From: Eledone cirrhosa
Lineage: Eukaryota
Reading direction: 5' to 3'
Assembly (NCBI GenBank): GCA_964016885.1
Contig: OZ024748.1
Coordinates: 44,082,001 to 44,146,000 of the forward strand
Length of the DNA stretch: 64,000 nt
The notes under the pieces are model-generated. The model saw only the letters and a program-made list of their open reading frames with translations, ran no database searches and was not told the DNA's origin. Numbering within the stretch: position 1 is the stretch's first letter; each line of letters opens with the position of its first letter. This document shows, piece after piece, positions 50,901 through 56,900 of the stretch. The position numbers and the translations under genes are program-made.

Positions 50901-53900
50901 CTTCTAAATCTTTATTTTGTTTTCTTAAACAGACATTCAAAAAAGCGATGGGAAAGATTTGTACATGGTGACAATCAACATTTGGTTAGCCCTGAAGCTT
51001 TAGATTTCTTGGACAAACTTCTTCGATATGATCACCAAGAAAGATTAACAGCAAGAGAAGCTATGGAACATCCTTACTTCTGTAAGAATTACATTTATTA
51101 TTATTATTAAGGTTGTGGATTGCTAGTATCGGTAAAGTGTCAGGCACCACGCTTCGCAGCATAGTTACGTCCCTTTGCCTTGGTCCCTCTTCAATTTTTG
51201 AGCCAAAACCATAACCACCATGTCCTCCAGTGTTTCCCAATGTGTCCAAGCCGTAACCACCACCAGGTCCCTCCAGTGTTTCCCAATGTGTCCAAGCCGT
51301 AACCACCACCAGGTCCCTCCAGTGTTTCCCAATGTGTCCAAGCCGTAACCACCACCAGGTCCCTCCAGTGTTTCCCAATGTGTCCAAGCCGTAACCACCA
51401 CCAGGTCCCTCCAGTGTTTCCCAATGTGTCCAAGCCGTAACCACCACCAGGTCCCTCCAGTGTTTCCCAATGTGTCCAAGCCGTAACCACCACCAGGTCC
51501 CTCCAGTGTTTCCCAATGTGTCCAAGCCGTAACCACCACCAGGTCCCTCCAGTGTTTCCCAATGTGTCCAAGCCGTAACCACCACCAGGTCCCTCCAGTG
51601 TTTCCCAATGTGTCCAAGCCGTAACCACCACCAGGTCCCTCCAGTGTTTCCCAATGTGTCCAAGCCGTAACCACCACCAGGTCCCTCCAGTGTTTCCCAA
51701 TGTGTCCAAGCCGTAACCACCACCAGGTCCCTCCAGTGTTGCCCAATGTGTCCAAGCCGCAACCACCAGGTCCCTCCAGTGTTGCCCAATGTGTCCAAGC
51801 CGCAACCACCAGGTCCCTCCAGTGTTTCCCAATGTGTCCAAGCCGTAACCACCACCATGTCCTCCAGTGTTTCCCAATGTGTCCAAGCCGTAACCACCAC
51901 CATGTCCTCCAGTGTTTCCCAATGTGTCCAAGCTGTAACCACCACCATGTCCTCCAGTGTTTCCCAATGTGTCCAAGCCGTAACCACCACCATGTCCTCC
52001 AGTGTTTCCCAATGTGTCCAAGCCGTAACCACCACCATGTCCTCCAGTGTTTCCCAATGTGTCCAAGCCGTAACCACCACCATGTCCTCCAGTGTTTCCC
52101 AATGTGTCCAAGCCGTAACCACCACCATGTCCTCCAGTGTTTCCCAATGTGTCCAAGCCGTAACCACCACCAGGTCCCTCCAGTGTTGCCCAATGTGTCC
52201 AAGCCGCAACCACCAGGTCCCTCCAGTGTTTCCCAATGTGTCCAAGCCGTAACAACCACCATGTCTCTCCAGTGTTTCCCAATGTGTCCAAGCCGTAACA
52301 ACCACCATGTCTCTCCAGTGTTTCCCAATGTGTCCAAGCCGTAACAACCACCATGTCTCTCCAGTGTTTCCCAATGTGTCCAAGCCGTAACCACCACCAG
52401 GTCCCTCCATTGTTGCCCAATGTGTCCAAGCCGCAACCACCAGGTCCCTCCAGTGTTTCCCAATGTGTCCAAGCCGTAACAACCACCATGTCTCTCCAGT
52501 GTTTCCCAATGTGTCCAAGCCGTAACAACCACCATGTCTCTCCAGTGTTTCCCAATGTGTCCAAGCCGTAACAACCACCATGTCTCTCCAGTGTTTCCCA
52601 ATGTGTCCAAGCCGTAACAACCACCATGTCTCTCCAGTGTTTCCCAATGTGTCCAAGCCGTAACCACCACCAGGTCCCTCCAGTGTTGCCCAATGTGTCC
52701 AAGCCGCAACCACCAGGTCCCTCCAGTGTTTCCCAATGTGTCCAAGCCGTAACAACCACCATGTCTCTCCAGTGTTTCCCAATGTGTCCAAGCCGTAACA
52801 ACCACCATGTCTCTCCAGTGTTTCCCAATGTGTCCAAGCCGTAACAACCACCATGTCTCTCCAGTGTTTCCCAATGTGTCCAAGCCGTAACAACCACCAT
52901 GTCTCTCCAGTGTTTCCCAATGTGTCCAAGCCGTAACAACCACCATGTCTCTCCAGTGTTTCCCAATGTGTCCAAGCCGTAACAACCACCATGTCTCTCC
53001 AGTGTTTCCCAATGTGTCCAAGCCGCAACCACCAGGTCCCTCCAGTGTTGCCCAATGTGTCCAAGCCGCAACCACCAGGTCCCTCCAGTGTTGCCCAATG
53101 TGTCCAAGCCGCAACCACCAGGTCCCTCCAGTGTTGCCCAATGTGTCCAAGCCGCAACCACCAGGTCCCTCCAGTGTTGCCCAATGTGTCCAAGCCGCAA
53201 CCACCAGGTCCCTCCAGTGTTTCCCAATGTGTCCAAGCCGCAACCACCAGGTCCCTCCAGTGTTTCCCAATGTGTCCAAGCCGTAACCACCACCAGGTCC
53301 CTCCAGTGTTTCCCAATGTGTCCAAGCCGTAACCACCACCAGGTCCCTCCAGTGTTTCCCAATGTGTCCAAGCCGTAACCACCACCAGGTCCCTCCAGTG
53401 TTTCCCAATGTGTCCAAGCCGTAACCACCACCATGTCTCTCCAGTGTTTCCCAATGTGTCCAAGCCGTAACCACCACCATGTCTCTCCAGTGTTTCCCAA
53501 TGTGTCCAAGCCGTAACCACCACCATGTCTCTCCAGTGTTGCCCAATGTGTCCAAGCCGCAACCACCAGGTCCCTCCAGTGTTGCCCAATCTGTCCAAGC
53601 CGCAACCACCAGGTCCCTCCAGTGTTGCCCAATGTGTCCAAGCCGCAACCACCAGGTCCCTCCAGTGTTTCCCAATGTGTCCAAGCCGTAACAACCACCA
53701 TGTCTCTCCAGTGTTTCCCAATGTGTCCAAGCCGTAACAACCACCATGTCTCTCCAGTGTTTCCCAATGTGTCCAAGCCGTAACAACCACCATGTCTCTC
53801 CAGTGTTTCCCAATGTGTCCAAGCCGTAACAACCACCATGTCTCTCCAGTGTTTCCCAATGTGTCCAAGCCGTAACAACCACCATGTCTCTCCAGTGTTT

Positions 53901-56900
53901 CCCAATGTGTCCAAGCCGTAACAACCACCATGTCTCTCCAGTGTTGCCCAATGTGTCCAAGCCGCAACCACCAGGTCCCTCCAGTGTTTCCCAATGTGTC
54001 CAAGCCGTAACAACCACCATGTCTCTCCAGTGTTTCCCAATGTGTCCAAGCCGTAACCACCACCAGGTCCCTCCAGTGTTGCCCAATGTGTCCAAGCCGC
54101 AACCACCAGGTCCCTCCAGTGTTTCCCAATGTGTCCAAGCCGTAACAACCACCATGTCTCTCCAGTGTTTCCCAATGTGTCCAAGCCGTAACCACCACCA
54201 GGTCCCTCCAGTGTTGCCCAATGTGTCCAAGCCGTAACCACCACCAGGTCCCTCCAGTGTTGCCCAATGTGTCCAAGCCGCAACCACCAGGTCCCTCCAG
54301 TGTTTCCCAATGTGTCCAAGCCGTAACAACCACCAGGTCCCTCCAGTGTTTCCCAATGTGTCCAAGCCGTAACAACCACCAGGTCCCTCCAGTGTTTCCC
54401 AATGTGTCCAAGCCGTAACAACCACCAGGTCCCTCCAGTGTTTCCCAATGTGTCCAAGCCGTAACAACCACCATGTCTCTCCAGTGTTTCCCAATGTGTC
54501 CAAGCCGTAACAACCACCATGTCTCTCCAGTGTTGCCCAATGTGTCCAAGCCGTAACAACCACCATGTCTCTCCAGTGTTTCCCAATGTGTCCAAGCCGT
54601 AACCACCACCAGGTCCCTCCAGTGTTGCCCAATGTGTCCAAGCCGCAACCACCAGGTCCCTCCAGTGTTGCCCAATGTGTCCAAGCCGCAACCACCAGGT
54701 CCCTCCAGTGTTTCCCAATGTCTCCAAGCCGTAACCACCACCAGGTCCCTCCAGTGTTTCCCAATGTCTCCAAGCCGTAACCACCACCAGGTCCCTCCAG
54801 TGTTGCCCAATGTGTCCAAGCCGCAACCACCAGGTCCCTCTAGTGTTGCCCAATGTGTCCAAGCCGCAACCACCAGGTCCCTCCAGTGTTGCCCAATGTG
54901 TCCAAGCCGCAACCACCAGGTCCCTCCAGTGTTGCCCAATGTGTCCAAGCCGCAACCACCACCAGGTCCCTCCAGTGTTGCCCAATGTGTCCAAGCCGCA
55001 ACCACCACCAGGTCCCTCCAGTGTTGCCCAATGTGTCCAAGCCGCAACCACCACCAGGTCCCTCCAGTGTTGCCCAATGTGTCCAAGCCGCAACCACCAC
55101 CAGGTCCCTCCAGTGTTGCCCAATGTGTCCAAGCCGCAACCACCACCAGGTCCCTCCAGTGTTTCCCAATGTGTCCAAGCCGTAACCACCACCAGGTCCC
55201 TCCAGTGTTTCCCAATGTGTCCAAGCCGTAACCACCACCAGGTCCCTCCAGTGTTTCCCAATGTGTCCAAGCCGTAACCACCACCAGGTCCCTCCAGTGT
55301 TTCCCAATGTGTCCAAGCCGTAACCACCACCAGGTCCCTCCAGTGTTTCCCAATGTGTCCAAGCCGTAACCACCACCAGGTCCCTCCAGTGTTTCCCAAT
55401 GTGTCCAAGCCGTAACCACCACCAGGTCCCTCCAGTGTTTCCCAATGTGTCCAAGCCGTAACCACCACCAGGTCCCTCCAGTGTTTCCCAATGTGTCCAA
55501 GCAGTAACCACCACCAGGTCCCTCCAGTGTTTCCCAATGTGTCCAAGCAGTAACCACCACCAGGTCCCTCCAGTGTTTCCCAATGTGTCCAAGCCGTAAC
55601 CAGCTAGAATGATGTCTCTGTCATCTGTAACTAGAAGTTCCTCATGGGAACAGTCTTTTTGTTCTTTACTAAAAAAAATAACCCACCCCACCCCAATCAG
55701 ATCTTCAGGGGATGTATGAAAACAATCCTGCATCACAGCATCCTTCATACCTCAATGAAAACGGCCCATATATATATATATATATATATATATATATATA
55801 AACTAATACATTTAAAATGTCCTTTATTTCTCTTTTGAACTTGATTATTTTTTCTTATTTTCACAGATCCTATTGTTAAAGAACAAGGGAGGACGTCCTC
55901 AATGTCTGGTCAAACATCTCCTACGCCTATCAATAACTCATCACAAATAGGAGGTAATTAGACATTTCTTACTTGATCATTGAAATGTTTAATATCACCA
56001 GCATTATTTAACTCTACAACAATAAATTAGCAGAAAATATCTCAAAATGTGTCGTCTGTTCATTAAAATGTTTATATCTTTATTACAAGACAAATTGTTG
56101 TGGAAATTTGCCTTAACCCTTTAGCATTTAAACCGGCCATATCCGACCACGATTCTCTCACCTCTTTCTGTTCAAACCAGCTGTAACTGGCCACTCATAC
56201 ATATGTTAAGGTATTGTTATCAAAATCTCGTAGATTCGGTATTATGTGAGCTAATTATGAAAATATAATAGTAAATATAGAGTAATTTAAATGTTAAAGG
56301 GTTAAACTATAAAGACTTTAATGTGATGCAATCCTGGGGCTGTTTTGTATTTTTCAAGAATGTCTTGCTAATGTGGTTTAATGCGGTACAGGAGTTAATG
56401 GTCTATTTCCATGCTTGTCTGGGCTAGATATGTTACGTTCTGAGGCAATATTGATCAGGTGACCATGTCTTGTTTATACATTGCATTTTTAGTTTGGTTT
56501 CAATGGCTAGATGCCCTTGGTCACACCAACTGCTTAATGCTGGGAGTATTTTATTGTGACACCTGGACTGCCATCTTACAGGGTGGACTGGGTGCTTCTA
56601 GTCATGACACCAGCATTACTCCCTTTACAGTGTGGGCTGGGTGTTTTTTGTCGCAGCACCAGCATTACCCCCCTTACAGAGTGGACCGGGCACATTTTAT
56701 TGTGGCACCAGCACTACCAATTTACATGATATACTGGGTGCATTTTATCATGTCACCAGCAAACCACCTTAGAAGTTTCACAGGATGCTTTTTGTTGGGA
56801 TTCTTAGCCATTTTCCAGTAGTAGCATGCTGTTCTGTTGATCAAACAACTGAAGTCTTCATTATGAGAACAGAGAAGTTACAACAACAACAACAGCAGTC

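What the first reader, a model, noticed from the sequence alone, without database searches (positions are those of the whole stretch)
51150..55760. 4.4-kb minisatellite born from the catalytic motif of a LINE endonuclease
Seen: on the minus strand the unique flanks read ...[22 protein letters not shown] and [15 protein letters not shown], and the 46-bp unit encodes the linking GHIGKH. The two array borders resemble each other (GGTTACGGCTTGG vs GGTTATGGTTTTGG). Known: RTE-clade AP endonucleases carry GDFNGHVG followed by HGGxGxGxRNEEG. Inference: a dead LINE fragment duplicated at this microhomology and amplified ~97-fold. Its coding origin helps explain the 1200-1500 aa stop-free frames, antisense to CK2alpha.
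Basis: partly seen in the sequence, partly recalled or inferred. Interest (0 to 1): 0.75.

Follow-up and report, generated by a model that had tools for sequence, protein, structure and literature searches.

The report
Intronic minisatellite grown from LINE fragment
Ninety-seven head-to-tail copies of a 43-46-letter piece of a broken jumping gene fill most of one intron of the casein kinase 2 gene; they likely multiplied on the spot after this species split from a relative whose intron appears short, an ordinary way for such repeats to arise, with no function shown.

Summary
The array is real: 97 units of 43-46 bp at 51213-55600, filling 92% of a CK2alpha intron, and its core occurs nowhere else in the genome. 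Three corrections. (1) The catalytic Asp-Phe-Asn codons are in no unit; the unit begins at the Asn codon's last base and has a 14-nt frameshifting deletion. (2) The resemblance between the borders is derived, not inherited from the LINE. (3) Coding origin does not explain the stop-free frames: sense windows of an intact LINE are stop-free less often (4%) than genomic DNA (14-18%), and 8 of 22 comparable minisatellites have a stop-free strand. A relative's contig appears to span the site in 188 instead of 4,550 letters and already carries the unit junction, so the expansion is likely lineage-specific. RTE membership is plausible but untested by phylogeny. TE-derived minisatellites are known (23% of human ones), and this scan noted other LINE-derived arrays in this genome, one from an endonuclease segment. 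Verdict: a well-resolved new member of a known kind.

The parts
50933..51081 (+). CK2alpha coding exon upstream of the intron
   Evidence: PDB match to casein kinase II alpha, E 5e-29; a contig of run X4 matches 50931-51081 with no differences and leaves the window at both ends
51082..55866 (+). GT-AG intron, 4,785 bp, 92% array
   Evidence: splice sites and in-frame joining of the two exons
51095..51176 (+). 5' head of a high-copy SINE-like repeat, cut just before a GTTCAAATCC word; tRNA-SINE and B-box labels are recalled
   Evidence: dispersed hits at 80-90% identity; 174 hits in fetched loci; loose ends in runs X1, X4 and X5 continue with that word
51177..51249 (-). 3' part of the LINE endonuclease fragment: terminal unit plus [15 protein letters not shown]
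   Evidence: 44 of 52 bases identical to L012; alignment
51213..55600 (-). single-locus minisatellite, 97 units of 43/45/46 bp, from the GHVG...HGGYG stretch after the catalytic Asn, with a 14-nt deletion
   Evidence: 92 of 92 core matches and 38 of 38 junction matches in the genome lie in this array
55601..55673 (-). 5' part of the LINE endonuclease fragment (SKEQKD...DDRDIILAG)
   Evidence: 64 matches, 5 mismatches plus gaps against L002/L003; those copies read ILAGDFNGHVG
51061..55620 (-). longest stop-free frame (1519 aa, 11% Trp, first Met at residue 383, no Pfam hit); likely a by-product
55867..55953 (+). next CK2alpha exon (C-terminal tail)
   Evidence: in-frame continuation; covered by contigs of organisms B and F

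Best explanation
This is a single-locus intronic minisatellite whose unit is a piece of an old LINE endonuclease gene, and it likely expanded in place, by slippage or unequal exchange and without selected function, after this species split from relative B. Shown: about 154 bp of LINE endonuclease sequence survives around the array, next to a truncated SINE-like head; the unit starts at the last base of the catalytic Asn codon, lacks D-F-N and has a 14-nt deletion. Inferred step 1, in the common ancestor with B: the deletion, and a first duplication joining the HGGxGYG end to the (N)GHVG start, followed by loss of the first, GDFN-bearing copy. This left one unit between look-alike borders sharing TGGTTA. 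Inferred step 2, in this lineage: microhomology-mediated duplication and local expansion to 97 units. The long antisense frames follow from one 46-mer having no TAA/TAG/TGA on one strand.
For: Collinear LINE match across the junction. Three parent pieces match PF14529 below its curated cut-off; a sister family has an intact 1024-aa EN+RT+PHD frame whose GDFN aligns with LINE-1 Asp145/Asn147. Unit core and junction occur only here. Identical neighbouring units: 48 against 11.5 in shuffles (max 25 in 10,000), mean unit divergence 4.4%, i.e. local and recent turnover. A 996-letter, depth-18.1 contig of run X5 (organism B) holds 51177-51261 at letters 377-461 and 55812-56120 at letters 650-963: 188 letters between, against 4,550 here and 207 expected for one unit; no difference is listed in 51230-51261, so junction and deletion are shared. 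A separate young copy (L144) has a clean two-copy 55-bp duplication with the same 5' breakpoint and GDFN kept in front, a natural model for step 1. Stop-free baselines. One of 11 substitution types makes a stop, against 18% expected (P 0.38).
Against: The B contig is matched between two calls only by length, depth, strand and order; its 188 middle letters were not shown. B's piece differs at 14 of 85 letters, more than its other pieces (28 of 493; 30 of 309). One relative cannot separate expansion here from contraction in B. The order of events in step 1 is inferred; drift of GDFN into a look-alike by point changes is less parsimonious (5 changes in 9 nt) but two bases of the border do match GDFN rather than the window's own GYGF copy. 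Composition-only shuffles are stop-free in only 1.75%, so the unit is unusually stop-poor for its base content. The stop test has little power. No stranded RNA or ribosome data were available.
Confidence: 0.85

Rival explanations
1. The array was already long in the common ancestor and contracted to about one unit in relative B; it is old and kept homogeneous by conversion.
For: B carries the unit junction, which is itself best explained as a duplication product, so at least two units probably once existed.
Against: Units differ by 4.4% on average, less than the A-B differences of the flanking pieces (about 6-10%); collapse from about 100 units to about one is a rarer path than growth (inference).
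Confidence: 0.07
2. The minus strand is transcribed and translated into a Trp/Gly-rich repeat protein, or the array acts on CK2alpha splicing or expression, and is kept by selection.
For: Frames of 1224-1519 aa; a Met in the unique flank opens about 300 codons; the only stop variant is in a single unit; each sense-strand unit has a pyrimidine run ending in CAG, like a 3' splice site (sequence).
Against: Stop-free strands are common in minisatellites here; 43/45/46-nt variants shift frame freely; no depletion of stop-making changes; no Pfam hit; apparently absent as an array in B.
Confidence: 0.04
3. The GHVG-HGGxGYG stretch is a duplication hotspot of this LINE family, or a ready-made junction was copied in from another LINE copy.
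For: L144 shares the 5' breakpoint; other AI notes on this genome claim hotspots at other LINE segments (not checked).
Against: The junction pattern is found only here (38 of 38); two exact tandem patterns gave one hit each, and only one is a LINE copy, against 21,836 first-look candidates of the family. Exact patterns miss diverged cases.
Confidence: 0.03
4. The array is inflated or created by the assembly.
For: No read or contig spanning the whole array was examined.
Against: 19 ordered variants; in run X1 one contig joins flank to first unit without differences and summed depth over the unit is 1883 against 7.57 on the flank (not a copy number, and X1 may be the source sample).
Confidence: 0.01

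Closest known systems
TE-derived minisatellites of the human genome (Ahmed and Liang 2012, PMC3389668; parts 1-3 of 4 read)
   Same: Single-locus array whose unit is a slice of a transposable element, expanded locally, with fewer units in related species; they count 7,276 such repeats (23%), 601 from L1, 300 with 5-20 bp flanking direct repeats.
   Different: Here 97 units, whereas most of theirs have two or three; the source is an endonuclease coding segment of a non-L1 LINE in an invertebrate.
Microhomology-mediated tandem duplication, Haber-Louis model (PMC13167724 abstract and opening text; PMC6947457 passages; the 1998 paper itself not seen)
   Same: A single-copy segment between short direct repeats (here TGGTTA inside longer look-alike borders) duplicates and then expands.
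   Different: The border resemblance here is not in the parent LINE and may be the scar of an earlier duplication; the analogous L144 duplication has only 1 nt of microhomology.
Satellites from LINE coding regions: Phodopus PROsat (L1 ORF2), seal Pvc20 (L1 ORF2), chicken HinfI (CR1) (review PMC9659126, passages and table)
   Same: Tandem unit taken from the coding region of a LINE.
   Different: Those are satellite DNAs described as similar to the element; this is one intronic locus still embedded in register in its parent fragment.
RTE-2_OV of Octopus vulgaris (PMC9115989, passages)
   Same: Single ORF of about 1100 aa with endonuclease, RT and zinc finger, like the intact sister family L048 (1024 aa; EN, RT, PHD).
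   Different: No sequence comparison was possible; the paper calls its finger C2H2; the window's fragment is closer to an older decayed family than to L048.

Membership tests
TE-derived minisatellite (Ahmed and Liang criteria) | Unit 20 bp or more, GC 40% or more, at least 2 units, 95% or more similarity among units | tested here: met
   46 bp, GC 0.54, 97 units, 96% matches
TE-derived minisatellite (Ahmed and Liang criteria) | Unit similar to, or overlapping by one period, a transposable element | tested here: met
   collapsed sequence aligns to dispersed LINE copies on both sides of and through the unit, 66-71% including gaps; no Repbase or Dfam library was available
Microhomology-mediated tandem duplication | Short direct repeats flank the unit in the single-copy ancestor | tested here: inconclusive
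   borders share TGGTTA and B appears to have about one unit with the 5' border, but B's full sequence was not seen and the parent family lacks the match
APE-type LINE endonuclease (source of the fragment) | EEP domain with GDFN motif | tested here: met
   parent copies read ILAGDFNGHVG and match PF14529 at E 1e-5 to 1e-3, below the curated cut-off; L048 matches PF03372 above cut-off and LINE-1 EN structures
Array unit as copy of the catalytic motif | Contains the Asp and Asn of GDFN (LINE-1 Asp145, Asn147; PMC8565326 passages) | tested here: not met
   D-F-N codons absent from all units and the 5' border
RTE clade LINE | Single ORF with endonuclease and reverse transcriptase, short repeat tail | tested here: met
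   met for the sister family L048 only: one 1024-aa frame, RVT_1 E 2e-29, (GAT)n right after the stop; the tail as an RTE trait is recalled
RTE clade LINE | Placement in the RTE clade by RT phylogeny | not testable with these tools
   no clade-labelled reference among the 120 listed homologues
Functional repeat-protein gene | Transcription and translation of the frame, selection on it | tested here: inconclusive
   no stranded RNA listed; stop test P 0.38 with low power; no Pfam hit

The most novel reading that the evidence does not exclude
The array is a lineage-specific de novo gene: the minus strand is transcribed antisense to CK2alpha and translated into a Trp/Gly-rich repeat protein of up to about 1,500 residues, built from a LINE fragment after loss of its catalytic codons removed the one out-of-frame stop, with a length that varies between individuals.
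Probability: 0.03. Interest if true: 0.7.

Novelty: new member of a known kind. Interest (0 to 1): 0.2.

Why it matters
As it stands it is a tidy teaching case, not a discovery. Parent element, a two-copy analogue (L144), a probable near-single-copy allele in a relative and the 97-copy array can all be lined up, so the birth of one minisatellite can be dated and its first steps tested by sequencing one short intron in a few species. It also shows that kilobase stop-free frames in such arrays are no sign of coding. It would matter more only if antisense translation or an effect of allele length on CK2alpha were shown.

Tried and rejected
Pfam found nothing in the 53-aa 5' flank or the 1519-aa frame, and a 118-aa parent piece found no relevant PDB chain; the longer L048 piece did. 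The run search listed no holder on record as RNA: no RNA holder listed, no evidence either way. Runs X6 and X7 laid nothing on the right flank, and X11 covered only the exon region. X5 showed no cover at 55690-55809 and X4 none at 51234-51290; these holes prove nothing, and the tool cut records at the (TA)n run. 832 homologues of L048 gave no clade name among the 120 listed. A loose tandem pattern was swamped by an unrelated 60-bp satellite; 140 of 240 matches were not listed and its control gave 255, so it is uninformative. L143 is an unrelated 31-bp array with no match to the LINE. The idea that 55674-55767 is the tail of the interrupted SINE was rejected: no hit in the fetched loci. A check of nine other arrays of the window against fetched loci found outside matches only for the 72-bp array; the sample is too small to rate TE origin. 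Look-ups of earlier notes near this place and by sequence were empty. Paper searches listed no report of this locus; subscription papers are not searched and no supplements were read.
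Full report
Observation. Tandem Repeats Finder places a 46-bp array of 97.0 copies at 51213-55600 with 96% matches. Cutting the minus strand at a fixed anchor gives 97 anchors and 96 full units in 19 variants: 67 of 46 nt, 22 of 43 nt and 7 of 45 nt. The exon before the array matches casein kinase II alpha (E 5e-29) and joins in frame to the exon at 55867; the intron is 4,785 bp, GT to AG, and 92% array. A contig of run X4 (kind not on record) matches that exon without differences and leaves the window at both ends, as a spliced transcript would. 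That the animal is an octopod comes from earlier AI notes and recall; I did not test it.

Origin of the unit. A search of the own genome with the 5' flank alone gave 11 other loci. Against the array collapsed to one unit, 8 of these 11 align in one piece across the junction (best E 9e-20), 2 in two collinear pieces and 1 on the 5' side only. They read ILAGDFNGHVG...HGGYGYGSRNEEG. Three of three tested match PF14529, below its curated cut-off. A related family is abundant (21,836 first-look candidates, 150 scored). One copy, L048, has a single 1024-aa frame with endonuclease, reverse transcriptase and PHD domains, and its GDFN aligns with LINE-1 endonuclease Asp145/Asn147, residues that hold the proposed nucleophilic water (PMC8565326, passages). 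The architecture resembles RTE-2_OV (PMC9115989, passages), but no labelled references were available for a tree, so 'RTE' stays likely, not shown. The surviving LINE piece is only about 154 bp and abuts the cut-off head of a SINE-like repeat at 51176.

What the unit holds. It does not hold the catalytic codons. Where the parents have GAC TTC AAT or a decayed form of it, every unit and the 5' border have a GYG-like word instead (0 of 11 parents show it). The unit core (92 of 92 matches) and the junction (38 of 38) occur only at this locus.

History. One contig of run X5 (organism B), 996 letters at depth 18.1 on the plus strand, carries window 51177-51261 at its letters 377-461 and 55812-56120 at 650-963. 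I identify it across the two calls by length, depth, strand and order only. It leaves 188 letters where the window has 4,550 and a one-unit allele would have 207, including a 33-bp (TA)n run. No difference is listed for it in 51230-51261, so the deletion and the junction are older than the split. Against this, the piece differs at 14 of 85 letters, more than B's other pieces (28 of 493, 30 of 309), and its middle was not shown. In the array, identical neighbours number 48 against 11.5 in 10,000 shuffles (maximum 25) and units differ by 4.4% on average, which fits recent local expansion. A young LINE copy elsewhere (L144) has an exact two-copy 55-bp duplication that starts at the same base of the Asn codon, ends inside HGGHGYG and keeps GDFN in front. 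I therefore infer a first duplication of that kind, loss of the GDFN-bearing copy, and later expansion from a unit between borders sharing TGGTTA. Two bases of the border match GDFN rather than the window's terminal copy, so drift or a mosaic cannot be excluded; the young family's second GYG reads GGT TAC GGC T, which also matches them.

Stop-free frames. Because 46 is not a multiple of three, all three frames must be stop-free, and coding history protects only one. In the one intact frame tested (L048), 122 of 3026 overlapping 46-nt sense windows are stop-free when circularised (4.0%), against 576 of 3026 antisense (19%) and 14-18% in 380 kb of genomic DNA; GC-matched values are 7.6%, 34% and 19-27%. 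In 454 kb, 21 of 35 minisatellites have an open frame and 8 of 22 with a length not divisible by three have a fully stop-free strand; these counts include this array, some low-complexity arrays and one array split over two loci. One of 11 substitution types in the array creates a stop, where 18% of possible changes would (P 0.38): no sign of selection, with little power. The long frames have no Pfam match and first Met codons inside the repeat. Antisense expression could not be tested.

Comparison with what is known. TE-derived minisatellites make up 23% of human minisatellites, 601 from L1, and expand locally (PMC3389668, parts 1-3 of 4). Satellites from LINE coding regions are listed in a review (PMC9659126, passages). 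Duplication between short direct repeats is the Haber-Louis or MTD model (PMC6947457 passages; PMC13167724 abstract). LINEs make up 12.9% of the Octopus vulgaris genome (PMC13282606, part 1 of 3). Earlier unchecked notes of this scan describe several other LINE-derived arrays in this genome, including one from an endonuclease segment. Their hotspot idea led me, which found one independent duplication of this segment and no second array among the listed matches.

Verdict. A real, single-locus, LINE-derived intronic minisatellite, likely expanded recently and without function. New member of a known kind; interest 0.2.

Noticed in passing
L144 = G000:C25:25835096-25835167: Exact two-copy 55-bp duplication of the same endonuclease segment in a young LINE copy (92% identical to L048), with the same 5' breakpoint as the window's unit and GDFN retained; a 33-bp array of 24.5 copies lies 660 bp away.
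   Followed up: yes
window 3546-5797: 50-bp array (45.6 copies) whose consensus is also stop-free on the minus strand; longest frame 543 aa.
   Followed up: partly
   Followed up: partly
window 30418-37411: 7-kb array of 200 x 35 bp at 96% identity; the window holds about ten minisatellites of 5 or more copies.
   Followed up: no
window 51213-55600, plus strand: Most units contain a pyrimidine run ending in CAG, resembling a 3' splice site, so the intron carries about 97 possible cryptic acceptors.
   Followed up: no
G000:C3:358422879-358492171: Satellite of about 60 bp spanning at least 70 kb, hit by a loose pattern; unrelated to the LINE segment.
   Followed up: no
G000: Many copies of a young PHD-finger LINE with frames of about 1024 aa; L048 is followed directly by (GAT)n.
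   Followed up: partly
window 55674-55767: About 95 bp between the LINE fragment and the (TA)n run with no match in the fetched loci; origin unknown.
   Followed up: partly
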